From the UHGV virus genome UHGV-0778877: a stretch of DNA of 14,363 nt; one strand, 5' to 3'. Shown here piece after piece: positions 1 through 14,363 of the stretch. Made by a program: the position numbers and the translations under genes. Origin of the DNA: a virus. The notes under the pieces were generated by a model that did no database searches, was not told the DNA's origin, and was given only the letters and a program-made list of their open reading frames with translations. Every line of letters starts with the position of its first letter. Position 1 is the stretch's first letter.

Positions 1-130
1 TTGAAGATGCGTCGTACACGAGAACATGGCGCGGAAGATGGATAATCAGCAACTCATGCGCATCAAACCGCAGCGATTCCATCACGCCATCAGCCAGTTC
101 ATCAGCAGTGTAGGAGCGTAGTATTTTATC
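1..130. repeat. Direct-repeat copy of an internal gp10-like gene segment (copy A); 127 nt exact, 129/130 overall, matching 2271-2400
   Basis: Read directly: window 1-127 is letter-for-letter identical to 2271-2397; position 128 differs (a vs c); 129-130 match; sequences diverge completely from 131 versus 2401. Confidence 0.9.
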
Positions 131-504
131 GTAGCCAGTTGATTGCTTGTGGCTGTCGAACCAAGTCCTCCCGTAGCCTCAGCAGCAGCAAGGCTCTGGT
201 AACGAGCCTGACCTGCAAGGTCTTTATACTGCTGAGAGTTGTAATACTGATTAAGTGCCTTCCCCTGTCCTTCTAAACTGGAAAGATTCTGAAGCTGGTT
301 AACATACTGCTCCGCAAGCGGAGTGAACGGAGCAAGGTTTTTCATGATCGTCTGCCACTGCTGATTTTGCAGGTCTGCGGCATACTTCTGAGCTTCTGCT
401 GCATACTTTGCGCTTTTATCAGAGCTACCACCTTTCCCGCCTTTTTCAGGGCACCAAGGTTCCTCGCCGCGCAGTTTTCTGCCCAGCTTAAATGCATATA
501 ACAT
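82..504 (-). CDS. Ejection (injection) protein, P22 gp7-like, N-terminal ~126 codons only; ORF continues out of frame into the repeat copy and stops at 82
   Basis: ATG at 504 with GGGAG 6 nt upstream; translation (MLYAF...GGKGGSSDKSAKYAAEAQKY...) is recognisable as the gp7 ejection protein family by recall and by its position after the gp14-like gene. Codons after about residue 126 derive from the 1-127 repeat read in a non-gp10 frame. Full-length P22 gp7 is about 229 aa as I recall, so this copy looks truncated. Confidence 0.6.
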   Translation of the reverse strand: MLYAFKLGRKLRGEEPWCPEKGGKGGSSDKSAKYAAEAQKYAADLQNQQWQTIMKNLAPFTPLAEQYVNQLQNLSSLEGQGKALNQYYNSQQYKDLAGQARYQSLAAAEATGGLGSTATSNQLATIKYYAPTLLMNWLMA

Positions 505-506
505 GG

Positions 507-962
507 CTATCTCCCGTAATTCAGGAAGTCGATTAGTTCTTCGCGTGTGGCGCTGTAAAAAGTCACGTCATCCACGCCTTTGAAGTATTTCTTGATGGTT
601 CCTACACGCTTAAGGCCAATCATTGCGCAGTACATCTGACCGTGGCGGAATTTGCGCGCAGCGAACGATGTGACGCACTGAACGGTGGTGTTAGTCAGAA
701 TGTATCGCCAGAACGCCAGCCCGATTTCCTTGCTGAATCCACGAACCTCTGGCAGGTACATGGCGTGGCAATCAAAGGTCAAAGGCTGAATCTCCTGATA
801 GTAAACAATGCCGCCGAACTGCCCGTGCACGTTCACCTCGAAGTAACGGCATTCAGGCTTGTAGTCGTATCCATCACCGTTATTGCTTCCGGCGATAATG
901 TCAGGGTGATTTCCGACTGCTTCGATCAGGTCGATGTTTCGCGTTGGTTTGAACTGAATCAT
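507..962 (-). CDS. gp14-like head/ejection-protein assembly protein (assigned by synteny)
   Basis: 151-aa ORF, ATG at 962 overlapping the upstream stop (TAATG), stop 2 nt before the next gene start. Position between tail needle and gp7 matches P22/Sf6 gene order. The family name is an inference; the CDS call is strong. Confidence 0.6.
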   Translation of the reverse strand: MIQFKPTRNIDLIEAVGNHPDIIAGSNNGDGYDYKPECRYFEVNVHGQFGGIVYYQEIQPLTFDCHAMYLPEVRGFSKEIGLAFWRYILTNTTVQCVTSFAARKFRHGQMYCAMIGLKRVGTIKKYFKGVDDVTFYSATREELIDFLNYGR

Positions 963-1810
963 TACTGCTCCGCGATTATCTTGATGGTTGTGGCAGTAAA
1001 CGCCGCACCATTCGACTGAATGGTTAACGTACTGCCATTTGTGGCAAGAAAGCCGTCTTTATCCACACTGAAGAACGTAGCTAACAGGATGTTGTCGGTT
1101 GTTGTCGCCGCATTACGACTGCTGACCAGCGTATCAGGAACAGAACCGGAGAATGTTAGCTGCATTGACCTGTTGGCGGTTCCGCTGGGCCACGTCCCGA
1201 CAATCGACAGCTTGAAGAACAAGGTTTTGTTCTCGTTGAACACAACCATCTTGTTGTTAACGGTGTCGAAGAATGGTGCCAACGTTCCGGATGACGGCGT
1301 GAGCGTTTTCAGCAGGCTAACAAGGTTGGTCGGCGCTGTCGGGATGGTTACAGATACTCCTGAGTAAACAACCTCTGATTTCTTGCGCGTGGTGGCATAC
1401 TCAAGAGCATCGATGCGCGTCTCATGGTCTGAAAGCGTGTTTTGAATGGCGACAACTTCATCCGTCAGATAATCAATATCGTTTTCTGCTGTCGTTAATC
1501 GCGAATCAAGGCCGACTATCGCCGCTTCTGCGTTAGTGATCCTTGTTTCGTGGTCCTGTATCTTCGCTTCAGCCGATGCCAGTCGAATTTCGTGATCGAC
1601 CAGAATCACATCCTGCTCATCGTTCCTGACTTGTGCATCATAAGCGCCCTGTCCGACCTCGTTGGCCTTGTTAGCAACGTTACCAACATCAGTACCCTGT
1701 GCGATAACGTACAGCAGATATGACTGCGAGAAGATATTGCGTGGAAGGACTGATGTGTCGAGCCGCGTAGCCTGGATGATTACCGGCTCATTGAGATTCG
1801 AATCAGCCAT
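962..1810 (-). CDS. Tail needle protein (P22 gp26 / Sf6 gp9 family), 282 aa, with a C-terminal knob-like extension
   Basis: ATG at 1810 overlaps the gp10-like stop (TAATG), with AGGA 7 nt upstream. N-terminus [25 protein letters not shown] is the conserved gp10-binding tip of tail needles. The middle is heptad-rich with three DHE(T/I)R(I/L) repeats (coiled coil). The last ~140 aa are a Ser/Thr/Asn-rich beta-type domain absent from the short P22-type needle. The 316-aa ORF-track version is an upstream in-frame extension into gp10. Confidence 0.85.
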
Positions 1811-3228
1811 TACTCGATCCTTATCTGGCAGCCTGACAGAGTGACAGGTGACTTCGTGATAACGCGCAATTTGAAGCCGACATTTTTCCTGATGCGCCCG
1901 ACTCGCTTCCACAAAACGCGCTTGTCGTAAACGAACGGTTCATTCTGCTCAATCATCTGCTCACGCCCGTAATTGATGCCGTCAGTGGTTGCAGAGAGGA
2001 ACAGGCGGTCAGCGTACTGCGCAACGCCAGTTGACGATTCAACCTCAAGGTCGAAAACTCTGGCGTTATCTGCTTTGAAGAGTGGAGTAAACAGCAGGTG
2101 TTCCTGTTGCTTGTCGTACTGGCTGCTGATATCGAACTGCAGTTTACCGGTAACAGATTCCAGCTTATCGCCGCACGTTATCTGATTGCCTTCGTAAATG
2201 AAGTCGATAGCGCGGTACACATCGTCATACAGACCTGTTTTCAGCACACACCATTGCGGACCATTGGCGCTTGAAGATGCGTCGTACACGAGAACATGGC
2301 GCGGAAGATGGATAATCAGCAACTCATGCGCATCAAACCGCAGCGATTCCATCACGCCATCAGCCAGTTCATCAGCAGTGTAGGAGCGTAGTATTTTCTC
2401 AGTGCTCGCGCTGGCGATTGGTGATACCTGACCGGAGCCTATGATGTATACAGACGGCGCACCTGTTGCCGGATTGCTGATGAACGCATACGAGTCAGCA
2501 AACGGCGTTTTGCAGTAAGTCCCGGCAATGCCTTTCTGCACCATCAGTGATGGCTGTGCGACATACAAAGCGGCACCAACGGTGGTTGCACCTGTCAGGG
2601 AAAAATATTCAATCGTCGATGAGCCAAAGCAGACGATGAAGTCTCGCCATGTACCTATGCCGATGATGCCGTCCGGCTGAGACTCGGCACGATATTGTGC
2701 ACTGTAGCGGTCAGGATGCGATTCATCTTCAAGGTCAGTGATAAACCATGAATCAGTGCCGTCTTTTGACCACGCATAACGCCCACGTAAGCGCGTAATG
2801 TCGCGAACTGAACCTAACTCATACTGAGTGAATCCACTGTCTGTAGGCCAGTTTGAGACGGTTTTAACCGTGCCATCATAGCGATACTCGACCAGTTGAC
2901 CATTAACGCCTACCGCCTGTGATGTCCGACCATGCGCCATTGATACACGACCACTTCCGGCAACGTCACCGACTTCACTTTCTCCTTTGTACAGCTTGCC
3001 ACCACACACACGATAAACAGCACTCTGCGCCATGTTGTACTCGACGCCTCGCGATACTCCGTTCACATCAGAACGTTTGGCAATGCCCGGGAATGAGCGA
3101 AGATATCCGCTGCTGTTCAGGATTTCTTTGGGTGTAGCCAGCATATTCACTGGCAGATAGTCGATATAGTCGGCATTTCGGAAGTCTTTGCCGACACCTT
3201 TCATGAGCGGAAGTTGCTGAATCGGCAT
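1810..3228 (-). CDS. Head completion / tail hub protein, P22 gp10-like, 472 aa
   Basis: 472-aa ORF ([33 protein letters not shown]...), same length and recognisable sequence as P22 gp10; start ATG overlaps the gp4-like stop by 1 nt. Confidence 0.9.
2271..2400. repeat. Direct-repeat copy B, lying inside the gp10-like CDS (about codons 277-320)
   Basis: Same comparison as copy A; this copy is in its native coding context within the 1810-3228 ORF. Confidence 0.9.
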
Positions 3229-3728
3229 TATTCGCTCCCGTTATCGCAAGGTTCCTTTCGGTGGAAGTAATTCCAACCGTTCCACTTCGCCAACTGGTTA
3301 CCGCTACCAACAGGCATACGGTTTGGATAACCGGACTTACATTTAGCGGCTTTTGCTCTGTCCATTGCAGACAGTTTGACGAGTCGCTCTTTCCCGTATC
3401 TGGCAGTGGTTATAAGTTTTGCTGACGCTTCCAGCGCATAATCCGGAGCAATGCGGCAGGCAAGGTTGAAAATGACGGCATTGATAGCGTTATTTGATAA
3501 GCCGTGCTCATCGCCCGGATCCGGAGCGACATCTGCATCAGCAAAAATGTAGCCAACGTTGATACCAGGTGACACATCACCGCCAAGCCATTCAGCCATC
3601 ATCATTTCAAGGTCGTTGACCCCGTCTTCCATAGACTGCGGTTCGACATCGGTTAACGTGGCATTTGATGCAACACCGAGCTTACGTAATGCTGCAAGGA
3701 CTAAATCACCCTTCGTTGTCAGGTTCAT
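3228..3728 (-). CDS. Head completion protein, P22 gp4-like, 166 aa (alternative upstream ATG at 3797 would give 189 aa)
   Basis: The ORF-track frame is 189 aa; an internal ATG at 3728 gives 166 aa ([19 protein letters not shown]...), the length I recall for P22 gp4. The N-terminal 23 codons of the long form overlap the upstream small ORF. Start choice is uncertain. Confidence 0.8.
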
Positions 3729-3936
3729 CTGCTGCCGCCTTAGGTTTTCGATCAGGCTTTTTACGCTGTTTTTCTTCTGGCTCTGGCTCTGCAACATCCT
3801 TCAAAAGGTCATCAGGATGTGAAAACCAACCAGCATCCAGATATTCCTGAAGCTCTTCGGCTTTCACGATTTCAAAGTCGTAGCCAACGCCTTTCCACTT
3901 CTTCATGTCGCCATGACGAAAGATCATGTGTGTCAT
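3706..3936 (-). CDS. Small hypothetical protein with acidic, Lys/Pro/Glu-rich C-terminus, between coat and gp4-like genes (76 aa from the ATG; 92 aa if the GTG at 3984 is used)
   Basis: ATG at 3936 preceded by GGAGA about 6 nt upstream; the ORF-track start at 3984 is a GTG overlapping the coat stop. P22-like head modules carry a small ORF at this position, as far as I recall. No function recognised. Confidence 0.55.
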
Positions 3937-3980
3937 GCTTGTCTCCAGATAAAAAAGGGAGCCGAAGCTCCCTCTGGTTA

Positions 3981-5276
3981 TCACGCAGTCTGGCTAGGCA
4001 GACCAACACCAATTGCCTCTGGTCGTACAGCACATGCTGAATACCACACAGCAATACGGCACTTACCAGACAGAGTGTTGATATCACCCTGCGTTGCGAA
4101 GATGCCGTTAACACCAATACCAGGAATGCTGAAGGAAGACGTTTTCATACCAGCAAACAGTTCATGGGTTACCGGGATCGGCTGAGACAGCAGACGGATT
4201 GAGTCATCAGCCCAGAACACGTTAGCGGTGGTTGTTGCCACGTTCAGAACGTTTACCGGAGTGGTATTAGCAAGAGATGTGTTTACATTAGCGTAAGCCT
4301 TCTCTTCTTTTGTCAGTGACGCGTCATCCAGTGCAATCGGTTTCGGCGTGATTTCGATGTGAGTACCATCGATCACACGGGTGATTGAGAAAGTCGCATC
4401 ATCAGTCAGCACGTTCTTCGCCATCTGAGACAGGAATTTCACACCAGTGAAGCTGATTTTGTCGCCGCGCTTAAATCCGGTGGTGGAGGATACGGTCACC
4501 GTTGCAACACGGTTGTCGACGTTCTCTTTGTTACCATCGGTATCAAGGGTGTATGCCTGCGGCTTAAACTTCTGCGCACCAGAAACAGTTACACCAGTAG
4601 CGGTTGACTTGGTAACTGCAGGAAGTTTCGGTGAGCGAAGAATTTCATCAAAGCCAGCAATCTGACGCTGAATAGTACCGTTGCGATAAGCTTCTTCAGG
4701 AACGCGCCCAAAGATGTCACCATCTACCAGGTTGCGGCCTGCTTTGCGGTAATCGTCAGGGTTCAGGAAGTAACTGATGCCCATGTCGCGGTTGAGTTCG
4801 CGGGAGAACATCAGGCGCTCTGCATCAGACACAAAATCCCAGCCAGACAGGCCAGTAGATGGACCAATTGCGCGGGTATCGTGAACAACAAGTGAGCCCA
4901 TTTCAGTTGCCTGTTTGGCAATCGCTGACTCAATGTTATTCGCCAGTTTTTTGGCAGATGCCTGGATGCGGCGACGGTAAGAACGCTCATCACGCAGGTC
5001 ATCTGCACGAAGCTCGAAGAAATCGTTATCCGGATCGCCCATGTTGCATTTCACGGAGAGTTCCAGAATCCCGGTTGCGTTGCCAGTTAAATCCCAGCCA
5101 GTCTGGGTTGGCGCTTCCTGCTCAACAGGCATCCACACGGTGTTGCTTGAGCGCTGCATGGATTCTGCCGGAGGGGTGTATTTTGTCACTTTGGACGCCA
5201 TTGGCGTCAGGTTCTGGACGGTTTCGATGATTTCATCCAGAGCATACGTGACCAGTTGACCTTCATTTAATGCCAT
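3981..5276 (-). CDS. Major capsid (coat) protein, P22 gp5-like, 431 aa
   Basis: 431-aa [28 protein letters not shown]..., length and sequence recognisable as the P22 coat protein family (HK97-like fold with insertion domain); ATG overlaps the scaffold stop (TAATG). Confidence 0.92.
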
Positions 5277-6187
5277 TATCGAATTCCTTTATTCAGTTGC
5301 GCCTTGAGCTTGCGGTATGTCTCTACATCCCCTTTGTTTGCTGCCGCTTCCATCTGCTTTTCAATCGCAGATATATTTGCAGCAACAGCGTGTCCCTGAA
5401 TGGGTTCATCAGGTAGCGGGGCTTCTGAAACAGGTTTGGCTCGAGGCTTGAGAGTTAAACGTTCTGACAGTCGAGTGAGTTCAATCAACGCGGATTGCCC
5501 GTCCATCGCCAGCAACTGGCGTGTTTTTTCAGGATTAGCACCAAGGTGATACATGAGAGCAGCGGATTTCTCCGGGAAGAGGCGCATGATGTCGGCACCG
5601 ACTGCTGGCGGCACCAGTTGCATGAATGCATCCTCTTTCTCCTGATAGTCAGGGATATTGAGCTTTTCCGCTGCGTCGTAGTGCTTACGGGCTGCCTCGA
5701 CGTATTGCGCTGATTGCTGGGTGAACTCCTGAGTTTTGCGACCCTGCTCGGCGACAGCCTGGCTTCGTGCGTCCATAGCCTTGATCTGCCATTCACTGTT
5801 TGCCTGCTGGAAGGCAGCCAGTGCGCGGCTCTGGTCATAGTCGTACTTAGCCAGTGCATCTTCGGAAAGATAATCGTTAGGGTCTGGTTGTTTTGGTAAC
5901 TCAGGGTTAACCCGCAGGTGCTCCGGCAATTCTCCACGCTTAACCGCTTCCATCTGCTGCTCAAGCTCACGCTGGCGTTTGCGTTCGATGCGGCGACGGG
6001 CAAATTCAGCATTAGTTGCCGGGTCTTGTTTTGGTTTCTCATCGTCTTTCAGGACAATCTCGAAGCCTTCTTCCTGGCCTGCGTTGTCGTTGGCATTATC
6101 GACAACTAAGCCATCAGCAGATGCCGCTGCATGATTGCCGGGCAGGGTTAATTCTTCAGAAGCCTGAATGTCGGTGGTTTGGTCCAT
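5276..6187 (-). CDS. Scaffolding protein, P22 gp8-like, 303 aa
   Basis: 303-aa ORF, highly charged and helical in character (runs of E/K/R/Q/A), C-terminal basic helix-turn-helix-like tail (...[14 protein letters not shown]); position between portal and coat; same length as P22 gp8 as recalled. Confidence 0.9.
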
Positions 6188-6200
6188 GATTAACTCTCTC

Positions 6201-8366
6201 TTATTGAGGTGTCTCGGCTACTCCGCCGGAGGGGATTTGAACTTGACGCATAAGATTCGCGAAATCCATGCGTTGTGAATGAGTCTGGTCTGCATCTTTA
6301 AGAAGCAGCTCAGCGTTAGCACGAGCATCTTTGCTGCGCTGTTGCTGGAATTGACCTACGAGCTTGAGGTACTCACGCAGTTCTGCCTGCTTGTCGAGGT
6401 CCATATTGTTGAAGATTTCTGCAATCTTCGCGGCGTTGAGTTGGTTTTGGGCTTCAACCTTGGCAGCTTCAACCTGAATCTGCGCCTGTTGGTTCTCTGC
6501 CTTGAGCAATTCAGCCTGACCTTGCAGAAGGATACCCTGCGCCTGAATTTGCTCTGCTGATGGCTGCTGCGGCTGTTGTTGTGCCTGTTGTACCATCTCC
6601 ATCTCTTCAGGTGTTTCTGGTTTCTTCAGCCCCATCATCACCAGTTGCTTGTTCGCGTACTCTCGCATCATCTCGACGCCTTTACCGTCAAGGAGCGTGA
6701 AGTATTGCAGCATCAGCATCTGGAACTCTGGAGTACCTTGCGGAACCTTGGTGAGCAATTCCTGAATCTCTGCGCGGTTCTGTTCCTTCATGCTCTGGAA
6801 GGATGGCCCAACGTCCGTATAGCACTCATAGCGACCGCGAATGTCGTTGAGTGTGACCACATTGCCGGACTGATAATCGACAACTTGCGCATAGAGTTGA
6901 ACGTCTTTCTCGCTTCCATCTTCAAGTGTCAGCGTTACATGACGAGGAACGTCATAAATATCGTTGACCATTGAGGCATAAATCTCGCCATCACGTCGCA
7001 TTGCGGTAGCCAGGTTATCCTGAAACACATATGTCTCAAGGTCTGCCCGCATGTTCAGTTGATTGACAGTATCGAAAGCGACCTGAGAGTTTGCTGCCTG
7101 CGCATCCACGCCAAGACTAGCCACCTCTTTCACTGCGTTGGTGGCAGCCTCAAGCATGTAAGCGTTGGCTTGCGGCACTTCAGGGTTTTCCATGTAGGAG
7201 ATTGGACCAATCGGCAGGTCGTTACCGTTTTCATCAGTCCTGTTCTGGAGATAGTACGGATAGTCATCATTTCCACCGTACATGTATTCGTAGCCTTCGA
7301 TTTGCTCAGGGAAGAAGGTAGGTTTCTTCTTCGGTGAACGAGCAACAATATCGGCGTTGAACGACATGATCATGTTACGAAGGCGCTGACCGTCTTTCGT
7401 CAGCCTTACCACTCCTTCGTAGCACTCCTTGTCACCAGCGAATGACCATTCGCCGTACACAGGAACTATTGGGATATGCTCTCCGGCTATCTTCTCGCGG
7501 TCTTTCAGTATCTGCGTGCAGGTGATGATCGACTTATACACACGCCGACGCTTCACCTTGCGCTCTGCTACCTTAATGAATCCACGATTAGCCAGATCGT
7601 CGATGACGTCTTTGATATCCTGCTGGTAATAGCTGACCGGCTCACCTGTCAGCGGGTCGCGGTAGATGAAGACCTTCTCTTTCTTCTCTTCTACCTCGTA
7701 ATACTCAGCGACGTAGACGACATCATTCGATACCCACGGAAACAGCCATGTGTCGTTCGGATTCTGGAAAGATGGCAGGGTGTCAGGATCAATACCGTAA
7801 TCCTCTGCGAACTCTTTCCAGCCATTGCGTGACAAAGCGTTAATCACCGTGCAGTGCTTAGCGTCGCTCTTATCCATCTGCTTGCTGTTGGCGTCCCATA
7901 TGACGTGTGAGCAGGCTTCATGGATTGGCAGGCGTCTGATTACCTGATTGTTGCTTGTTGGGTCGTTGTCTTCGTACTGTGTGACCAGACGCCATGCACC
8001 AACGCCGGACTCTATCTGCTCACGAACGCCAACGTTAACGGCAATCTTTGCCGTGTTATGCCGCATATCAGTACGATACATCCCCATCAACAAATCGGCT
8101 GCATCAGGATTAGCGCCGTCTTTGGGTCGGAAGAGAACGTCGATAGGGTTCCGGCGCATCTCTGCGACCAGTTTCCTGACCACCGGGCGAACAACATCGA
8201 ATTGTCCGCGATATTGCAGGGTAGTGTAGTTTGATAGCCAGTCATCCCATTGCGACACTCGGCTAAAATACAGGTCATTTGTCGCCTCGGTTCTGGCTTC
8301 ATCGCTCGCCATCCAGTCCGCGTCAAACTTACACAGAATGGAATTGAGTCTGTTTTCGTCGGCCAT
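6201..8366 (-). CDS. Portal protein, P22 gp1-like, 721 aa
   Basis: 721-aa [31 protein letters not shown]...; recognisable P22 portal, including the long Q-rich C-terminal helical barrel region ([35 protein letters not shown]...). ATG directly follows the terminase stop. Confidence 0.93.
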
Positions 8367-9866
8367 TTAAGTTCTCCGTGCGATGGGCCTGATTGGGGCT
8401 GGTATCTTTTTCTCTTTTGGTTTTTTGATGTCGCGCATCATTTTGGCGAAGCGGCGCATCATGTATGCATAGCGAACGGCTGAGAGAACATCGTCGTTAA
8501 GCTTGACGATCTTCCCGTTTTCATCACGGTGATAGAGGCGGAACTCCTCAAAGAATGGCTCACAGGTGTTGAATACTTTGAAGCGACCATCGAGCATCAT
8601 GTCGCGCAATTCAGTGATGCCAGGCTCCACAGCATTACCGCCATCAGGCCATGTCGCATGCTCCTGCAACATCATAAAACCAGCGTCGGCATACTGCCCT
8701 TTGAGCTGCTCACCGCCGCCCTTCTCATGCTGGTTTCCGTCATGAGGCCATGCGGTTGGCACTTTATGCGCCCATGATTTAACGGCTCCCCACGCCTGAA
8801 CGGCTGTTTTTTCTTTCGCCTTCCACACGCGTGAAACGTAGATTGTGTCTGCGTCCTTATCCCACCAAAGCTGAACCTGCGCCTGTGGGTGATCCCATCC
8901 GAAATCCATCCCGCCAATTACGTAGAAGTGATCAGGACACTCGAACGGCTGACACTTAATCGTCTCTTCCGGTATCTGGAAGATTCGACCACTACCCATC
9001 GTAGGAATACCGCGAGCACGCGCCTCTCTCTCATGCTCTGGATAGGATGCGATGATTTGCTCTTTCTGCTCGTCGGTATAGTGCTCAGCGTCATAGATGG
9101 TCATGTTGACCACTTTCTGCGACTTGCTGGGATTCTTCAGGAACTTGGTAACAACGTCAGACATCCCCATCAGCGGGGTAAACGTCAGAATTGAGAATTG
9201 CCCGTATTTGTTGGTACGGGTAAGACCTTCGCCATAAATGCTGTATGGTGGCTCTTCGTCAAACCACACGCCGTGGATTGTGTCACCCTGCCAGCGAGCA
9301 CGGCCTTGCGAGTATGGTTTGAAGTAGCAGATTGAAATGCCATCTTCAACGCCATCAGCCGTGTGATGCTTAACCAGAAGATGATCAACAAGGTTCGGAA
9401 AGAAAGGAGACTTCTTCCAGCTAATGATGTCTTCTTTCGGTATGGAACCGTAGCCAGGCTCATCATTCTCTTCGATACGACCGCACAGGATGCGTTGAGT
9501 CGTTTTGGTTACAGTCTCGTTTGTCTCGCCACCAATCCAGAAGACAACAGGCTCATAGAAACGCTTACCTTTCCACTCCCCACCATATTTACCATCAGCA
9601 GGATATCCTTTTGTGCCCGGATAACGCCCGGTAAGGTGAAATGCGACTTCAGCAGCACCAGTAAATGACTTACCAAGCTGGTTACCAGCCATAAAACAGC
9701 GCTCTGGATAGTCATGCCCGGCGTCGATGAACTCACGCTGTTTGCTGTATGGCGTAAATTCATATAGCAGGTGTGTGTTCCGGTAGTTCTCTTCTTCTTC
9801 GAGTAGCTCGAGCAATTCGATTTGCTCTTCGTCGCTCAGGTTATCAAGAATCGCGTCCAGTTCCAC
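8367..9866 (-). CDS. terL: Terminase large subunit, P22 gp2-like, 499 aa
   Basis: 499-aa ORF with ATPase and nuclease character, located between small terminase and portal. The first codon at 9866 is GTG, not ATG (read from sequence), with AAGGAG about 10 nt upstream; no in-frame ATG lies nearby. It overlaps the terS 3' end by 23 nt. Confidence 0.9.
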
Positions 9867-10338
9867 GGTTGAATAGCTCCTTGATACGAGAGCGCCGCTT
9901 ATCGCGATCTCCCTTATCAGGTGTCACGTCTTCAACTTGCGACTGCTCTTTGAGGCCCAAATCACGGGCGATGATGTTAGCGTTGAGAAGGTCAGCGGCT
10001 GCGCCAGAGAATTTCTGGTCGTAGATGACCTGCTCTGCTCGCGTAACGACTTCAGATAAATCTTCTCTCAGGCGATATGTGCGCCATGTTTCAAGCGTCA
10101 CATCAATGAACAGAGTGAGGCCTGTAATAGTCATCGCTCGCATCTTGGCGATAGGCTCTTGTATCACTTCACCCTGATACGAGAACGCCTTCATCTCCCA
10201 TAGCGGGTTAGCTTCTACCCACTCGAAGTATTCACAACAAGCAGCCCACAGCGCCTCAGGCGATTCGAATTTAGGATTTCGCCCATGACTACTGCGGGCC
10301 TCCCAAAATCGGTTGCCCTTTGGTGCTGCCATATTCAT
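9844..10338 (-). CDS. terS: Terminase small subunit, P22 gp3-like (164 aa from the ATG at 10338; 162 aa from the ATG at 10332)
   Basis: [52 protein letters not shown]..., recognisable as P22 gp3; two in-frame ATGs 6 nt apart; it contains the pac-like sequence listed below. Confidence 0.9.
10044..10065 (-). other. Candidate headful packaging initiation site (pac), P22-type, inside terS
   Basis: The minus-strand sequence GAAGATTTATCTGAAGTCGTTA encodes EDLSEVV within terS, the codon context in which the 22-bp P22 pac site lies; it matches or nearly matches the P22 pac sequence as I recall it from memory (not checked). Confidence 0.45.
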
Positions 10339-10355
10339 CTCACTTAGTTGTTATT

Positions 10356-10535
10356 TCAGGCTGATGACTCTTTCGCGCCTTCAATCAATGACTGCTTCAG
10401 CAATTCGAGTGTGCCAATCGCCTCACATAAACTGATTTCACCATCGTAATCATGAATGACGCTTTCCAGCCGCTCGTATAGCTCTTGAGTAATTGGGAAT
10501 TTCTTCTCCTTACCCAAATTGATTACGCGGCTCAC
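10356..10535 (-). CDS. Unlisted small ORF, 59 aa, GTG start, tightly coupled to the upstream 80-aa ORF (alternatively a frameshifted continuation of it)
   Basis: Hand translation of the minus strand: GGAG, then 6 nt, then GTG at 10535, one nucleotide after the upstream TGA; it reads VSRVINLGKEKKFPITQELYERLESVIHDYDGEISLCEAIGTLELLKQSLIEGAKESSA, then TGA. It is below the apparent 60-aa cut-off of the ORF track. This frame is open for about 8 codons upstream of the GTG, inside the 80-aa ORF. Confidence 0.4.
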   Translation of the reverse strand: MSRVINLGKEKKFPITQELYERLESVIHDYDGEISLCEAIGTLELLKQSLIEGAKESSA

Positions 10536-10536
10536 A

Positions 10537-10779
10537 TCATGCTCCGGTGGTGAACAGGTCTAACGCTTCCTTCGATTTACGCACCGCTTCGAATGTGCGG
10601 ATCGTGATATCCGAATTAGCGCCGCCTGACTGGAAGTGAATTTTGAATAGCTCAAGCTTCAACTCGTCAGTACCAATGAACTGAAATGCTTCTTCTGCGG
10701 CTGCGTTCTGGTTCATGACCAGCTTGTAAATCTCTAACTGGAATTTCTGTTCTTCAGTCATGGGAATAATCTCTGCCAT
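10537..10779 (-). CDS. Hypothetical protein, 80 aa
   Basis: ATG at 10779 with GGAG about 7 nt upstream; no family recognised; sits between the gp49/gp66-like gene and terS in the late operon. Confidence 0.6.
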   Translation of the reverse strand: MAEIIPMTEEQKFQLEIYKLVMNQNAAAEEAFQFIGTDELKLELFKIHFQSGGANSDITIRTFEAVRKSKEALDLFTTGA

Positions 10780-10800
10780 TGTTGGCTCCGTTTATCCGTT

Positions 10801-10829
10801 AAAAGGGATATCAGTTAAGTTATCCCGTG
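10801..10829 (-). terminator. Weak hairpin plus short T-run between the gp49/gp66-like gene and the 80-aa ORF
   Basis: Inverted repeat GGGATA (10805-10810) and TATCCC (10821-10826) with a 10-nt loop; on the minus strand it is followed by TTTT. The stem is short and AT-rich, so any terminator function would be weak. Confidence 0.2.
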
Positions 10830-10882
10830 TAGGGTATAAGCCATTATCAAAGCCACTCTGTAGGGAATGGCTTTTGTAATAA

Positions 10883-11263
10883 CTACTGTTCGCTTAGCTT
10901 CTGCTTCAGCAAGTAACCTTCGAGCATCCAGATTTTGTTTACAGCATTTTGCCGGGCAATCTTCCGACCAATTTCTGCATCAAAGTTTTCCGGGCTCGCA
11001 CAGGCACTCTCTCCGGTGACGGTGAAGCCATTCTTCAGCACCAGTACGCAGAAAGTGAGCAACTTCAATGGTGATAAATCACGATCGCCTTCTTCTGGTT
11101 TTTCCCTGCCACAATATTCGTTGCTGGAAATGGCACCATTTCGTCCATCACAAGCAGTAAAGTAATGCTCGCTTTTAATCACGTCTTCGATGTGCTGCGG
11201 GGTGATTCGCGGTGCCGTTTTGCCTTTCTCAACGATTTCTTTTTCGATTTGCTGGTCGTTCAT
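10883..11263 (-). CDS. Phage gp49/Sf6 gp66-family protein (function unknown), 126 aa
   Basis: 126-aa ORF containing the stretch ...LKNGFTVTGESACASPENFDAEIGRKIARQNAVNKIW..., which I recognise as characteristic of the N4 gp49 / Sf6 gp66 family; placement just upstream of the terminase genes fits. Weak Shine-Dalgarno. Confidence 0.6.
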   Translation of the reverse strand: MNDQQIEKEIVEKGKTAPRITPQHIEDVIKSEHYFTACDGRNGAISSNEYCGREKPEEGDRDLSPLKLLTFCVLVLKNGFTVTGESACASPENFDAEIGRKIARQNAVNKIWMLEGYLLKQKLSEQ

Positions 11264-11641
11264 AATTATGACCCTGTGGAGTGGTTGCTTGATTAGGATG
11301 TCTTTCCATCAGTCCGCCACCACAAAGAATCTTTTTTGCCATAAGGCAGGAGGTTCATCTTTCAGTGGCTGCCAGTGTTATTTCCCCACTTACTGGCTTG
11401 GGTTGTTTCGCTGTACTGCCGTAACTGGTTACCCAGAATAAATTTTGGTTTCATTATCAAGCCCATCCGTAGATAGGCTTTGTAATGAACTGGCTCTTAT
11501 CTCAACGCAGCCCCTTACCGCGCGCAAGATGCTCAATATCAAGCATCAGCAATGAGATGTTTAATCTGGATTCACTCCAGAAGTGATCACCATCCTGTCT
11601 ACAGAGCCAGATGTGAAGGATGATGAGTAAAATTATCGCTA

Positions 11642-12109
11642 TCATCGAAGGCATTGCGTCCTGATGTATTCCTGAAGCGTTCTCAGTGCTGTTTGGTCGC
11701 GGATAATTCCGTCCCGGACACCGAGAACGTTTCGTCCAGCAACTGGAGAGAGTTCGACGGTGGCATCATTGCCCATGCCGGAGGCGCCGGAGGTTTCGGC
11801 TGAGGATGGCACAGGGCATTTTCCTTTGACGAGCACCCTGCCACCATTATCAAGCTTGCGCCGAAGAGCATCATTTTCAGCTTTCGCATCAGCTAACTCC
11901 TTCGTGTATTTAGCATCGAGTGCATCAGCAGCACGCTGGCGTTGCTGCATGTCAGTAATGGTGGCGGTCGCCTGCTTCAGCTCACTGACTTTTTTATCTC
12001 GCTGTTCTTTGTAGGCGATGGCGTTATCACGGTAGTGATTAACAGCCCATGACAGGCAAACGATGATGCAGATAACCAGAGCGGAGATAATCGCGGTTAC
12101 TCTGCTCAT
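11642..12109 (-). CDS. Rz: Spanin inner-membrane subunit (i-spanin) Rz, lambda-type, 155 aa
   Basis: [31 protein letters not shown]... recognisably lambda Rz; ATG overlaps the R stop (ATGA) as in lambda. Confidence 0.92.
11683..11889 (-). CDS. Rz1: Spanin outer-membrane lipoprotein subunit (o-spanin) Rz1, embedded in Rz in the +1 frame
   Basis: ORF wholly inside Rz in another frame: [21 protein letters not shown]... with a lipobox (VAGC) and a Pro-rich mature region ([11 protein letters not shown]), as in lambda Rz1. Confidence 0.85.
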
Positions 12110-12582
12110 ACCTCAATCTCTCTGACCGTTCCGCCAGCTTCTTTGAATTTTGCAATCAGGCTGTCAGCCTTATGCTCGAACTGACCATAACCAGCCCCCG
12201 GCAGTGAAGCCCAGATATTGCTGCAACGGTCGATAGCCTGACGAATATCACCGCGATCAATCATCGGCAAAGCGCCACGTTCCTTAATCTGCTGCAGCGC
12301 AACAGCGTCCTGGCTTTTGGGAGAGAAGTCTTTCAGGCCAAGCTGCTTACGATAGGCATCCCACCAACGGGAAAGAAGCTGATAGCGACCGGCTGCTGTT
12401 GATTTGAGTTTGGGGTTTAGCGTGACAAGTTTGCGAGGGTGATCGGAGTAATCAGTGAATAGCTCTCCGCCTACAATGACGTCATAACCATGATTTCTGG
12501 TTTTCTGACGTCCGTTATCTGTTCCCTCTGACCATGCCAGCATATCGAGGAACGCCTTACGTTGATTATTGATTTCCACCAT
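12106..12582 (-). CDS. R: Endolysin R, lambda-type lytic transglycosylase, 158 aa
   Basis: [42 protein letters not shown]... recognisable as lambda R along its whole length; overlaps the S 3' end by 17 nt as in lambda. Confidence 0.95.
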
Positions 12583-12889
12583 CTTCTACTCCGGCTTTTT
12601 TAGCAGCGAAGCGTTTGATAAGCGAACCAATCGAGTCAGTACCGATGTAGCCGATGAACACGCTCGTTATATAAGCGAGATTGCTACTTAGTCCGGCGAA
12701 GTCGAGAAGGTCACGAATGAACCAGGCGATAATGGCGCACATCGTTGCGTCGATTACTGTTTTTGTAAACGCACCGCCATTATATCTGCCGCGAAGGTAC
12801 GCCATTGCAAACGCAAGGATTGCCCCGATGCCTTGTTCCTTTGCCGCGAGAATGGCGGCTAACAGGTCATGTTTTTCTGGCATCTTCAT
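12566..12889 (-). CDS. S: Holin/antiholin S, lambda-type class I holin, 107 aa with dual start motif (Met1 and Met3)
   Basis: [34 protein letters not shown]... recognisable as lambda S; ATG at 12889 (S107-equivalent) and ATG at 12883 (S105-equivalent). Confidence 0.95.
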
Positions 12890-12894
12890 GTCTT

Positions 12895-12910
12895 ACCCCC
12901 AATAAGGGGA
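12895..12910 (-). promoter_or_regulatory. sdi-like stem-loop upstream of the S dual start
   Basis: Minus-strand CCCCTTATTGGGGG immediately upstream of the S start codons, as in the lambda S leader, where this hairpin sets the holin:antiholin start ratio. Confidence 0.6.
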
Positions 12911-13014
12911 TTTGCTCTATTTAATTAGGAATAAGGTCGATTACTGATAGAACAAATCCAGGCTACTGTGTTTAGTAATCAGATTTGTTCGTGACCGATA
13001 TGCACGGGCAAAAC

Positions 13015-13044
13015 GGCATGAGGTTGTTAGCGCAACCTCCTGCC
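13015..13044. repeat. Imperfect 12-bp inverted repeat with 6-nt loop in the Q-S spacer
   Basis: Minus strand GGCAGGAGGTTG cgctaa CAACCTCATGCC (one mismatch) followed by GTTTTGCCC; function unknown; weak terminator-like on the minus strand. Confidence 0.3.
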
Positions 13045-13423
13045 ACCCACTTTCACGAAGGTCATGTGTAGAAAGCCGCAGCATAACTATCACTGATGAA
13101 TTCAGGATAGCCAGTGGCTACGGCCCAGTTTGGGTTGTGGCGGTCGGTGCTGAACTCCGACTTAATGACGATAGGCGTGTACCGACGCCTCGTTTTACTT
13201 CCTCCGCTTTCACGGCTTCACCCTAGACCAGCTTTACGAAATCCTCGTAAACCTAACCGCGGCAGATATGACCGGCACGGTGTACCATATCACGGACCGG
13301 CGGGTGTCTCGTTCACCTGATTAACGCATCAGCCTGCGTATTCACCACAACGATAAGAGCACTGCGCGGCACCTTTCACCAATTCCGCGAGGTCTGCGGG
13401 TTCAATGCTCTTACCTGTTGTGC

Positions 13424-13469
13424 AAATAAAAAAGCCACCGTTGCAACTTAAGAGTCACTAACGGCAGCT
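13424..13469 (-). terminator. Intrinsic terminator immediately downstream of Q (tR'-equivalent)
   Basis: Minus strand AGCUGCCGUU (17-nt loop) AACGGUGGCU forms a 10-bp stem (two G-U pairs), followed by TTTTTTATTT. Downstream sequence (tgcacaacaggtaagagcattga...) resembles, as I recall it, the lambda sequence just past tR'. Confidence 0.55.
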
Positions 13470-13478
13470 TACCTTCTA

Positions 13479-13508
13479 ATTATGGCTAAATGGCTAATTG
13501 CATGTCAA
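13479..13508 (-). promoter_or_regulatory. Candidate Q-dependent late promoter (pR'-equivalent) overlapping the Q stop codon
   Basis: Minus strand TTGACA (13508-13503), 18-nt spacer, CATAAT (13484-13479); the predicted transcript start is about 35-45 nt upstream of the terminator above, the arrangement expected for a Q-modified late promoter. Confidence 0.45.
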
Positions 13509-14004
13509 GACTTTTAACAGCAACATGCTTAACTTTCTCAACACGTTTACGCATTTTGAAAGCATTTTGCATTGGTTGGTACAAAACAAATAACGACGCT
13601 TTCAGGATGTCGTCAATTTCGTTTCTACAGGTTGCCAGTGAAGGTTTTCTCCATCCCTCGCCACCACGTCCACACATCTTGCGTGGCTTTGCAGTCGCGT
13701 GATAGTAGGATGCAATTGCTCGCTTAGATGAACCATGAGCGTAGTAGCTGAGGAGGATGCCAAAGGCTTTCTTGTCAATGTACATGACGGAATCAACGAC
13801 CTGAGAAATCAACATTCCATCATCATCATTACACATTGGCCTTGTCATAATTCTTCCCGGCTCTACGCTCTCCATGAACTTCGCTATTACGCTGCTCATG
13901 CGCTTTTCCAGACGACCTGAATAAACCCATGCTCCCCACAGTTCAAGCCAGCCATTCAGCCACTCGTGCTGCTCTTTGGTGAGGTTTAGTTCTCTTATGC
14001 CCAT
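13486..14004 (-). CDS. Q: Late-gene antitermination protein Q, QuuD/phage-82-type (not lambda-Q-type), 172 aa
   Basis: 172-aa ORF with ...[13 protein letters not shown]...[19 protein letters not shown]...LLSYYAHG..., the pattern I recognise from E. coli prophage Q homologues such as QuuD; located directly upstream of the lysis cassette; start overlaps the ninI-like stop. Confidence 0.8.
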
Positions 14005-14363
14005 GCGCCTTCTCCCTGTACATGAATCAATGTGAGGTTTCCGCAGAACACTGCGCCGGTATCGATATACATCTGGTTGGCAAACTTGAGTGGTTTCACT
14101 GCTGGCGTATGACCAAAGATGAACGTGTCCGCTCCTTTGATTTCTTTCACGATCCCGTCTTGTGAGTTGCTGATTCGTTCGCGGTTCCAGATTACCTGCT
14201 GATGATCAACTGGCTTTCCAAACTCGTATTCGTCACAGGGATAATCGGCGTGGCAGATGACATATTTTTTACCTTCGCTCACCAGTTCGATGATTAACGG
14301 AAGTTCATCTGCTTTATGGGGCAAGAGCTTTAGCCAGAATTTCTTTGTCGTAATCGAGATTAA
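13995..14363 (-). CDS. ninI: Ser/Thr protein phosphatase, lambda NinI (ORF221)-like, C-terminal part; 5' end lies beyond the window
   Basis: The frame is open from the window edge: ...[42 protein letters not shown]...[12 protein letters not shown]...[11 protein letters not shown], a metallophosphatase pattern recognisable as lambda NinI. The ORF-track start at 14324 is an internal TTG, not the true start. Confidence 0.85.

What the first reader, a model, noticed from the sequence alone, without database searches (positions are those of the whole stretch)
1..14363. Mosaic late operon: lambda-type lysis cassette joined to a P22/Sf6-type headful head module
S, R and Rz/Rz1 look near-identical to lambda; terS, terL, portal, scaffold, coat, gp4 and gp10 look P22-like; the tail needle looks Sf6-like; Q is a third type. 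All are co-oriented with short or overlapping intergenic distances, consistent with one late transcript. The exchange points fall at gene boundaries, as modular phage evolution predicts.
Basis: partly seen in the sequence, partly recalled or inferred. Interest (0 to 1): 0.4.

Follow-up and report, generated by a model that had tools for sequence, protein, structure and literature searches.

The report
Ordinary mosaic P22-like prophage late operon
This is the late (lysis plus head-assembly) operon of a common P22-like E. coli/Shigella prophage; it really is a patchwork of lambda-, phage 21/Sf6-, HK620-, CUS-3- and P22-type pieces, but that patchwork is textbook for this phage group and the same DNA already sits, base for base, in a public genome assembly.

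Summary
The mosaic is real but ordinary. All genes lie on the minus strand: ninI', Q, PR'/qut/tR', S, R, Rz/Rz1, four small accessory genes, terS, terL, portal, scaffold, coat, gp4, gp10, needle, gp14 and a truncated gp7.

**Confirmed by segment-wise comparison**
- S and R are about 99% (aa) lambda-like.
- Q is a third type, the phage 21/Sf6 kind (98.8% aa to Sf6).
- The head genes are P22-type.
- The needle has an Sf6-type knob (98.6%).

**Corrections**
- Rz/Rz1 are HK620-type (62%/41% aa to lambda).
- The P22-type head genes are only about 75% nt identical to P22 itself. The exception is orf80 to terL codon 304, at 96-100%, including an exact P22 pac site.
- Several breakpoints lie inside genes: terL, Rz, the needle shaft, gp10 and gp7.

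**Novelty: none**
- Window 128-14037 is 100.000% identical to NCBI assembly GCA_001292545.1.
- 160 complete E. coli genomes cover at least 80% of the window; the 25 best-matching records listed are 95.9-97.4% identical.
- Phage IME10 covers 87%.

Window 1-127 exactly duplicates an internal gp10 segment joined mid-gp7, and is probably a k=127 contig-end artefact.

The parts
13995..14363 (-). 3' part of ninI (Ser/Thr phosphatase), cut by the window end; last gene of the early-right operon
   Evidence: 97% nt identity to lambda, Sf6 and IME10 over 14002-14363; 90% aa identity to lambda NinI C-terminus
13486..14004 (-). Q late antiterminator, phage 21/Sf6 type (172 aa)
   Evidence: 98.8% aa identity to Sf6 gp59; Pfam PF06530, E = 1.6e-25; no hit to lambda, P22 or HK620 Q
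13479..13508 (-). Late promoter PR' (TTGACA-18-CATAAT), overlapping the 3' end of Q
   Evidence: Best promoter match in the window, 11 of 12; identical to the annotated Sf6 PR'
13425..13481 (-). qut site and tR' leader terminator (21/Sf6 type)
   Evidence: Base-for-base identical in alignment to the Sf6 region annotated as qut (L006 1408-1456) and tR' (1420-1464)
13131..13422 (-). Non-coding Q-S spacer of CUS-3/IME10 type, replacing the tRNA-Asn/tRNA-Thr pair of Sf6
   Evidence: 98.7% identity to CUS-3 and phage Huey, 91% to IME10; no tRNA; no Rfam family; fold z-score -1.75
12566..12889 (-). S holin/antiholin (107 aa, Met-Lys-Met dual start), lambda type
   Evidence: 99.1% aa identity to lambda S, 100% to Sf6 and IME10; PF05106
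12106..12582 (-). R endolysin (158 aa), lambda type
   Evidence: 98.7% aa identity to lambda R, 100% to HK620 R
11642..12109 (-). Rz i-spanin (155 aa), HK620 allele; lambda similarity ends at about codon 82
   Evidence: 91.6% aa identity to HK620, 61.7% to lambda; PF03245
11683..11889 (-). Rz1 o-spanin lipoprotein, embedded in Rz in another frame
   Evidence: 98.5% aa identity to HK620, 41% to lambda; PF06085, E = 3.8e-21
11502..11654 (-). Small ORF (50 aa), homologue of Sf6 gp65
   Evidence: 94% aa identity to Sf6 gp65 and to the HK620 equivalent
10883..11263 (-). Accessory gene, N4 gp49 / Sf6 gp66 family (126 aa)
   Evidence: 98.4% aa identity to Sf6 gp66; PF13876; absent from P22 and HK620
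10537..10779 (-). DUF2560 gene (P22 orf80 / HK620 hkbM)
   Evidence: 96-99% aa identity to P22, Sf6, HK620 and IME10; PF10834
10356..10535 (-). Small ORF (59 aa; P22 orf59c / HK620 hkbN)
   Evidence: 98.3% aa identity to P22 and HK620; absent from IME10 and the JNE082640 prophage
9844..10332 (-). terS (P22 gp3 allele, 162 aa)
   Evidence: 100% aa identity to P22 gp3 over 162 aa; PF16677; IME10 only 82%
10044..10065 (-). pac site, exact P22 22-mer GAAGATTTATCTGAAGTCGTTA inside terS
   Evidence: Exact match to the annotated P22 pac site; also exact in several E. coli prophage loci
8367..9866 (-). terL (499 aa), domain-chimeric relative to P22: codons 1-304 are 96% nt identical, the rest about 73%
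   Evidence: PF03237 (residues 57-302) plus PF17289 (318-470); max-chi-square breakpoint at nt 914, window about 8953, Fisher p = 6e-38; 99.8% aa identity to IME10
6201..8366 (-). Portal (721 aa), P22 type
   Evidence: PF16510, E = 5e-162; 99.6% aa identity to IME10, 77.6% to P22, 33% to Sf6
5276..6187 (-). Scaffolding protein (303 aa), P22 type
   Evidence: PF09306; 99.3% aa identity to IME10, 85.2% to P22
3981..5276 (-). Coat protein (431 aa), P22 type
   Evidence: PF11651, E = 3.5e-166; 98.4% aa identity to IME10, 72.9% to P22, no hit to Sf6 or HK620
3954..3975 (-). Stem-loop / terminator just after coat (t-coat)
   Evidence: 9-bp stem plus T-run; same position as the stem-loop or terminator annotated after coat in P22, Sf6 and HK620
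3706..3936 (-). Small ORF (76 aa) between coat and gp4
   Evidence: Called as a 76-aa gene in the identical contig L036; no Pfam family
3228..3728 (-). gp4 head-tail adaptor (166 aa)
   Evidence: PF11650, E = 2e-58; 99.5% aa identity to IME10, 58% to P22, 39% to Sf6
1810..3228 (-). gp10 head-closure protein (472 aa)
   Evidence: PF11134, E = 1e-299; 99.4% aa identity to HK620, 98.5% to Sf6, 93% to P22
962..1810 (-). Tail needle (282 aa) with Sf6-type knob; domain mosaic
   Evidence: PF16532, E = 5e-109; against Sf6 the N-terminal domain is 96.7%, the shaft 53.2% and the knob 98.6% aa identical
507..962 (-). gp14 (151 aa, DUF2824)
   Evidence: PF11039; 98% aa identity to Sf6
128..504 (-). gp7 ejection protein, N-terminal part of about 125 codons only
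   Evidence: PF25688 profile positions 1-135 of 230; collinearity with all relatives stops at window 128
1..127 (.). Exact 127-nt copy of window 2271-2397 (internal gp10), joined mid-gp7; probable contig-end artefact
   Evidence: junction absent from three public collections; fusion ORF not on record; the identical contig has an intact 231-aa gp7

Best explanation
The window is the reverse-complemented late operon of a P22-like (Lederbergvirus-type) temperate prophage of E. coli/Shigella, probably a whole short-read contig.

**How it works** (inferred from the well-studied homologues, not tested here)
1. The phage-21-type Q protein engages RNA polymerase at the qut site of PR' (13479-13508).
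2. The polymerase then reads through tR' and the downstream t-coat hairpin, giving one long late transcript.
3. That transcript encodes the lysis genes: S holin, R endolysin and the Rz/Rz1 spanins.
4. It also encodes a small accessory-gene slot and the P22-type headful packaging and head-assembly genes.
5. TerS recognises the pac site that lies inside its own gene. TerL cuts and packages DNA into portal/scaffold/coat procapsids. gp4, gp10 and the needle then close the portal channel.

**How the mosaic arose**
- The patchwork (lambda-like ninI, S and R; 21/Sf6-like Q and its promoter; a CUS-3-like spacer; HK620-like Rz/Rz1; Sf6-like gp65/66 and needle knob; a P22-identical terS with the terL ATPase domain; an IME10-like head core) is the normal outcome of recombination among co-resident lambdoid phages and prophages.
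- The surviving junctions lie at gene boundaries or protein-domain boundaries.
- This is a known population of prophages, not a new construct.
For: - Gene content and order, with all diagnostic Pfam families.
- Segment-wise identity profile against five reference phages.
- PR'/qut/tR' identical to the annotated Sf6 elements.
- Exact P22 pac site and a 100% identical TerS.
- terL breakpoint at the ATPase/nuclease domain boundary, p = 6e-38.
- Needle domain mosaic, matching the published HS1 pattern (PMC3741392).
- 100.000% identity over 13,910 nt to GCA_001292545.1. There the operon continues with gp7, gp20, gp16, mnt, a tailspike and an integrase.
- 160 complete E. coli genomes cover at least 80% of the window; the 25 best records listed are 95.9-97.4% identical. 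The JNE082640 prophage is collinear with 128-14361.
- The identical Rz protein sits beside at least 5 terminase/head types and both Q types.
- The identical portal occurs with varied flanks.
- Literature on mosaicism in P22-like phages: PMC2629481, PMC3741392, PMC10883804.
Against: - Nothing contradicts the assignment.
- Function is inferred by homology only. Transcription as one unit, Q specificity and pac use were not tested.
- The window shows a truncated gp7 (1-127 junction). In the identical public contig gp16 is called as two ORFs, so the prophage might be defective.
- The host species of GCA_001292545.1 could not be looked up.
Confidence: 0.93

Rival explanations
1. It is a genuinely new mosaic phage, a module combination not seen before.
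For: No record in the phage collection matches uniformly. The best are IME10 at 87% coverage and APC_JM3.2 at 84%. IME10 differs at Q, Rz/Rz1, terS, orf59 and the needle C-terminus.
Against: A public assembly contig is 100.000% identical over 13,910 of the 14,363 nt. 160 complete E. coli genomes cover at least 80% of the window. JNE082640 has the same gene order, including the 21-type Q and the knob needle. Every module and this type of shuffling are published.
Confidence: 0.02
2. The mosaic is an assembly chimera: pieces of several co-resident lambdoid prophages were wrongly stitched together by a short-read assembler.
For: The window's left end carries an exact 127-nt (k-mer-sized) duplicate of internal sequence joined mid-gene. 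The identical public contig also has an inverted 420-nt ninH/ninI piece at its own end. Both show that assemblers struggle here.
Against: The internal junctions are reproduced in independent assemblies, including closed chromosomes: JNE082640 is collinear over 128-14361, and IME10, Sf6 and HK620 each share individual junctions. Only the terminal 127 nt are anomalous.
Confidence: 0.03
3. The gp7/gp10 junction at window 127/128 is real. It would be a 2,270-bp tandem duplication (gp10 codon about 277 to gp7 codon about 125) or a rearranged, defective prophage remnant.
For: Copy spacing is exactly 2,270 nt in direct orientation. Decayed P22-like remnants are common in E. coli (PMC3741392: more than 100 genomes). 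Locus L032 shows a real deletion joining lysis genes to gp10.
Against: The duplicated length is exactly 127 nt, the usual largest SPAdes k, and it ends at the window edge. The junction is absent from viral, genome and metagenome collections. The fusion protein is not on record. The otherwise identical prophage has an intact gp7.
Confidence: 0.2

Closest known systems
Prophage in NCBI assembly GCA_001292545.1 (contig CYGL01000178.1)
   Same: 100.000% nt identity over window 128-14037, with the same genes in the same order.
   Different: It has an intact gp7 followed by gp20, gp16, a tailspike and an integrase. Its contig end upstream of Q carries an inverted ninH/ninI piece instead of the collinear ninI seen in the window.
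Enterobacteria phage IME10 (NC_019501, Lederbergvirus), the closest described phage
   Same: Head core from terL to gp10 is 98-99.8% aa identical. It has lambda-type S and R, gp66 and DUF2560 genes, and the CUS-3-like Q-S spacer.
   Different: Different Q type (no hit). Rz only 56% aa identical, with no Rz1 hit. terS 82%. No orf59. P22-type 233-aa needle instead of the knob needle.
Shigella phage Sf6 (NC_005344)
   Same: ninI-Q-PR'-qut-tR' at 98%; S and R; gp65-gp68 at 97-99%; gp10-needle-gp14-gp7 at 92% nt; knob at 98.6% aa.
   Different: Sf6 has a different head type (Sf6_terminase/Terminase_3; portal 33% aa, coat no hit), two tRNA genes after tR', a different Rz/Rz1 allele and a different needle shaft (53% aa).
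Salmonella phage P22 (NC_002371)
   Same: Same head-module type and gene order. terS is 100% aa identical with the exact pac site. orf80 to terL codon 304 is 96-99.5% nt identical.
   Different: The rest of the head module is only about 75% nt identical. P22 has a lambda-type Q (gp23), a different endolysin (gp19, no hit), rha in the accessory slot and a needle without a knob.
Phage lambda (NC_001416)
   Same: ninI 3' end at 97% nt. S and R are 99% aa and 94.7% nt identical, with the same S dual start.
   Different: Lambda similarity ends inside Rz (about codon 82) and at the Q start codon. It has a different Q family (PF03589), cos packaging and unrelated head genes.
E. coli phage HK620 (NC_002730) and phage CUS-3 (CP000711)
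   Same: HK620: Rz and Rz1 at 92% and 98.5% aa, R at 100%, gp10 at 99.4%. CUS-3: Q-S spacer at 98.7% nt.
   Different: HK620 has a lambda-type Q, an Sf6-type head, KilA-N genes in the accessory slot and a needle without a knob. CUS-3 was compared only for the spacer.

Membership tests
P22-like phages (Lederbergvirus), P22-type procapsid assembly cluster | Gene order terS-terL-portal-scaffold-coat-(small orf)-gp4-gp10-needle-gp14-gp7, each with the P22-specific protein family | tested here: met
   PF16677, PF03237/PF17289, PF16510, PF09306, PF11651, PF11650, PF11134, PF16532, PF11039 and PF25688, all in P22 order; collinear blastn to P22
P22-like phages (Lederbergvirus), P22-type procapsid assembly cluster | Ejection proteins gp20 and gp16, and a tailspike with the P22 head-binding domain, downstream | tested here: met
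   Outside the window, but present in the 100% identical contig: PF16928, PF26808 and PF09008
P22-like phages (Lederbergvirus), P22-type procapsid assembly cluster | Headful packaging started at a pac site inside terS | tested here: inconclusive
   The exact P22 pac 22-mer and a 100% identical TerS are present. Actual headful packaging cannot be tested with these tools.
Lambda-type lysis cassette (S, R, Rz/Rz1) | Class I holin with Met-Lys-Met dual start, directly followed by an overlapping lambda R-type endolysin | tested here: met
   S is 99.1% and R 98.7% aa identical to lambda; S begins MKM; S and R overlap by 17 nt
Lambda-type lysis cassette (S, R, Rz/Rz1) | Rz with Rz1 embedded in the +1 frame (two-component spanin) | tested here: met
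   PF03245 and PF06085; Rz1 (11683-11889) lies inside Rz (11642-12109)
   62% and 41% aa identity to lambda, against 92% and 98.5% to HK620
Phage 21-type Q antitermination module | Q of the PF06530 family (not lambda PF03589) with its cognate PR'-qut-tR' immediately downstream | tested here: met
   PF06530, E = 1.6e-25. Q is 98.8% identical, and the promoter/qut/terminator identical, to Sf6, whose record annotates them as phage-21-like. Phage 21 itself was not compared directly.
Phage 21-type Q antitermination module | tRNA genes downstream of tR', as in phage 21 and Sf6 | tested here: not met
   No tRNA found; the tRNAs are replaced by a CUS-3-type spacer. This is an accessory feature, not a defining one.
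Sf6-type tail needle (knob) | C-terminal knob domain of the Sf6 type on a gp26-like N-terminal domain and coiled coil | tested here: met
   PF16532, E = 5e-109; knob 98.6% and N-terminal domain 96.7% identical to Sf6

The most novel reading that the evidence does not exclude
The most novel reading still open concerns the block from orf80 to terL codon 304, which is 96-100% identical to Salmonella phage P22 and includes an identical TerS and the exact pac site. It could record a very recent cross-genus exchange that created a working TerL, with its ATPase domain from one lineage and its nuclease domain from another about 27% diverged in DNA. That would pinpoint the inter-domain linker as a permissive recombination joint, and would give Salmonella and E. 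coli phages a shared packaging specificity. The pattern itself is shown here. What is uncertain is whether it is new, because IME10 and many E. coli prophages share it and horizontal exchange of terS in this group is, to my knowledge, already published.
Probability: 0.07. Interest if true: 0.3.

Novelty: already known. Interest (0 to 1): 0.08.

Why it matters
It matters little beyond correct annotation. The window is a clean worked example of lambdoid/P22-like modular evolution, with breakpoints at both gene and domain boundaries. But the sequence is already public, the prophage type is common in E. coli, and the principles were established in the HK620, Sf6, epsilon34 and P22-group comparative papers. 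The practical lessons are that the last 127 nt should not be annotated as a gp7-gp10 fusion, and that 'near-identical to lambda' applies to S and R only.

Tried and rejected
- **tRNA genes between Q and S** (as in Sf6 and phage 21): none found.
- **A structured RNA in the 290-nt Q-S spacer:** no Rfam family at the gathering threshold or at E <= 1. The fold z-score is only -1.75. The segment is 98.7% identical to CUS-3.
- **Opposite-strand genes** (a lambda bor-like cargo gene): the nine longest plus-strand ORFs have no Pfam family.
- **Finding the source contig through the gp7/gp10 junction:** no hits in viral, genome or metagenome collections. The fusion ORF is not on record.
- **Reading Casjens & Thuman-Commike 2011 (Virology 411:393):** not held in the library, so it is cited only from its entry in the reference list of PMC3741392 and from my own knowledge.
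- **Whole reference genomes could not be used in scripts:** only one newly fetched locus was exported per script run, and the four whole-genome loci (38-48 kb) never appeared. The relevant parts were refetched separately.

Full report
**1. What is in the window**

All real genes lie on the minus strand, so the late operon runs from coordinate 14363 down to 1. In transcription order the genes are:
- the 3' part of ninI (13995-14363);
- Q (13486-14004);
- a 596-nt regulatory and spacer region;
- S (12566-12889), R (12106-12582), and Rz (11642-12109) with Rz1 embedded (11683-11889);
- four small accessory genes: orf50, a gp49/gp66-family gene, DUF2560 and orf59;
- terS (9844-10332), terL (8367-9866), portal (6201-8366), scaffold (5276-6187) and coat (3981-5276);
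- a 76-aa ORF, gp4 (3228-3728), gp10 (1810-3228), the tail needle (962-1810) and gp14 (507-962);
- the first ~125 codons of gp7 (128-504).

Pfam supports each assignment at E-values from 1e-21 to 1e-299. Two exceptions are R, which is identified by 98.7% identity to lambda R, and the small ORFs. There are no tRNAs and no Rfam families. The nine longest plus-strand ORFs have no Pfam family.

**2.

I compared the window, both segment by segment and in 200-nt sliding windows, with lambda, P22, Sf6, HK620 and IME10.
- **Lambda** aligns in only two places: 11862-13139 (S, R and the first ~82 codons of Rz; 94.7% nt) and 14002-14363 (ninI; 97%).
- **Q** has no similarity to lambda Q, P22 gp23 or HK620 Q. 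It is 98.8% aa identical to Sf6 gp59. The Sf6 record annotates that protein as phage-21-like. Pfam places it in PF06530, whereas the 207-aa lambda-type Qs of related prophages fall in PF03589.
- **The late promoter, qut and tR'**: PR' is TTGACA-18-CATAAT at 13508-13479 and is the best promoter match in the window. Together with qut and tR' it is base-for-base identical to the annotated Sf6 elements.
- **Directly after tR'**, Sf6's tRNA-Asn/tRNA-Thr pair is replaced by a 290-nt non-coding segment. It is 98.7% identical to phage CUS-3 and 91% to IME10.
- **Rz/Rz1** are the HK620 allele (92% and 98.5% aa), not the lambda allele (62% and 41%).
- **The accessory genes** are Sf6-like at 97-99% nt.
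- **From orf80 to terL codon 304** the window is 96-99.5% nt identical to Salmonella phage P22. TerS is 100% identical in protein, and the annotated 22-bp P22 pac site is present exactly at 10044-10065.
- **At terL nt 914 (window ~8953)** mismatch to P22 jumps from 3.9% to 26.8% (Fisher p = 6e-38). This is the boundary between the Terminase_6N ATPase domain (residues 57-302) and the Terminase_6C nuclease domain (318-470).
- **From there to the end of gp4** the window is P22-type but only ~75% nt identical to P22. It is 97-98% nt (98-99.8% aa) identical to E. coli phage IME10. Sf6 and HK620, which have a different head type, give weak or no hits.
- **At the gp4/gp10 boundary (3228-3233)** similarity to Sf6 and HK620 begins (92-94% nt) and runs to gp7.
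- **The needle** is a domain mosaic relative to Sf6: N-terminal domain 96.7%, coiled-coil shaft 53.2%, knob 98.6% aa. This is the pattern published for the HS1 prophage needle (PMC3741392).

**3. Verdict on the observation**

Most of it is confirmed: S and R are lambda-like, the head is P22-type, the needle is Sf6-type, Q is a third type, and the genes are co-oriented and tightly packed. Two statements are wrong or incomplete.
- Rz/Rz1 are not near-identical to lambda.
- Exchange points do not all fall at gene boundaries. Boundary-type junctions exist at ninI/Q, after tR', before S, upstream of orf80 and at gp4/gp10. At least five breakpoints are intragenic: Rz at about codon 82, terL codon 304, both ends of the needle shaft, and identity patches within gp10 (2600-3100) and gp7 (~400). 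The ones that can be mapped onto domains sit at domain boundaries.

**4. Is it a new mosaic?**

No.
- No single described phage is uniformly similar. IME10 covers 87% at 95.9% and APC_JM3.2 covers 84%.
- The coat and needle proteins led to contig CYGL01000178.1 of NCBI assembly GCA_001292545.1. It is 100.000% identical to window 128-14037: 13,910 nt, 0 mismatches, 0 gaps.
- In that contig the operon continues with an intact 231-aa gp7, gp20, gp16, an mnt-like gene, a tailspike with the P22 head-binding domain and an integrase. So this is a P22-like prophage.
- Among 5,426 complete E. coli genomes, 160 cover at least 80% of the window; the 25 best records listed are 95.9-97.4% identical. The best, JNE082640, is collinear over 128-14361 and has the same 21-type Q and knob needle. 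It is itself locally mosaic relative to the window, in the needle shaft, the accessory genes and Rz, and it lacks orf59.
- Population-level shuffling is directly visible. The identical 155-aa Rz protein sits next to P22-type, Sf6-type, CUS-3-like, lambda-type (Terminase_2) and Terminase_4/TerL_ATPase packaging modules, and next to both Q families. The identical portal occurs with different Q types, accessory genes, needles and homing-endonuclease insertions.
- The P22 terS allele with the exact pac site is also common in E. coli: 31 records at 99% identity or more, and the exact 22-mer in seven E. coli-derived loci.

**5. Literature**

- PMC2629481 describes P22-like phages as mosaically related lambdoid phages, with interchangeable lysis cassettes, highly mosaic early regions and Q genes, and a conserved procapsid-assembly cluster.
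- PMC3741392 reports that 69 of 164 P22-like genomes, all from Escherichia or Shigella, carry Sf6-type knob needles whose knobs differ by at most 4.9%. It also describes shaft-only divergence in HS1, and notes that more than 100 E. coli genomes hold P22 remnants.
- PMC10883804 describes intragenic mosaic modules in the ejection proteins.
- From my own knowledge, the HK620 (Clark 2001) and Sf6 (Casjens 2004) genome papers and Casjens & Thuman-Commike 2011 established lambda-type lysis genes next to P22-like heads, and the P22, Sf6 and CUS-3 head types. The 2011 paper is not held in the library.

**6. Mechanism** (inferred by homology, not tested)

Q of the 21 type loads onto RNA polymerase at qut in PR' and suppresses tR' and the hairpin just after coat (3954-3975). 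This gives one late transcript for lysis, packaging and head completion. TerS binds the pac site within its own gene. The domain-chimeric TerL packages by the headful mechanism.

The mosaic arises by recombination among co-resident lambdoid prophages, with selection retaining junctions that respect gene or domain boundaries.

**7. The left end**

Window 1-127 is an exact copy of window 2271-2397, which lies inside gp10. It is joined in direct orientation to gp7 at about codon 125, and position 128 is the first difference.
- Every relative, including the otherwise identical contig, continues with gp7.
- The junction is absent from the viral, genome and metagenome collections, and the resulting 140-aa fusion ORF is not on record.
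- 127 nt is the usual largest k-mer of SPAdes (my knowledge).
- I therefore read this as a contig-end artefact (~75%) rather than a real 2,270-bp tandem duplication (~20%).
- The right end stops in ninI, a sequence shared by many lambdoid prophages and a typical contig break point. The identical public contig has its own oddity there: an inverted 420-nt ninH/ninI piece.

**8. Conclusion**

This is a correctly perceived but ordinary feature: a P22-like prophage late operon whose mosaic structure, individual modules and exact sequence are already known. Interest is low.

Noticed in passing
window 1-127 (copy of window 2271-2397): An exact 127-nt direct duplicate of an internal gp10 segment is fused mid-gp7 at the window edge, creating a spurious 140-aa gp7'-'gp10 fusion ORF (82-504, minus strand). 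It is k-mer-sized and absent from all public collections, so it is probably an assembly artefact.
   Followed up: yes
L036 1-420 (GCA_001292545.1 contig CYGL01000178.1): The otherwise identical public contig starts with a 420-nt ninH/ninI segment in inverted orientation relative to Sf6, lambda and IME10, joined 33 nt upstream of Q. This is either a hairpin-type contig-end artefact or a real inversion in the nin region.
   Followed up: partly
L036 15948-17036 and 16990-17946: In the 100% identical prophage the ejection-protein gene 16 is called as two overlapping ORFs (362 and 318 aa, both PF26808). This suggests a frameshift, so the prophage may be defective.
   Followed up: no
L020 15495-16220; L037 7618-8343; L021 13092-13607: Prophages with the identical portal or coat carry NUMOD4/HNH_3 homing-endonuclease genes. 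Some are inserted at the gp4/gp10 junction, leaving a 34-aa gp10 N-terminal fragment. One lies between scaffold and coat on the opposite strand.
   Followed up: no
Slot between Rz/orf50 and DUF2560: window 10780-11500; L026-L035: This slot is a cargo hot spot. In different prophages with the same Rz it holds gp49/66, Rha/ORF11CD3, KilA-N, DUF551, T5orf172/MUG113 or a Tad2-like (PF11195, anti-defence-like) gene.
   Followed up: no
L032 3807-8468: A deletion derivative in which Rz-orf50-Tad2-like-gp49/66 is joined directly to gp10-needle-gp14, with no terminase, portal or coat. It appears to be one of the small P22 remnants carrying an Sf6-type needle gene that PMC3741392 mentions.
   Followed up: no
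window 13131-13422: Sf6's tRNA-Asn/tRNA-Thr pair is replaced by a CUS-3-type non-coding spacer that begins with a long perfect hairpin (GGTAAGAGCATTGA...CAGTGCTCTTATC). The first ~90-107 nt are shared with HK629, HK75 (annotated there as a terminator) and others. There is no Rfam match and no significant fold signal.
   Followed up: yes
L020 14430-15017; L025 14430-15017: In some relatives the small ORF between coat and gp4 is replaced by a 195-aa WDGH-domain (PF25311) protein.
   Followed up: no
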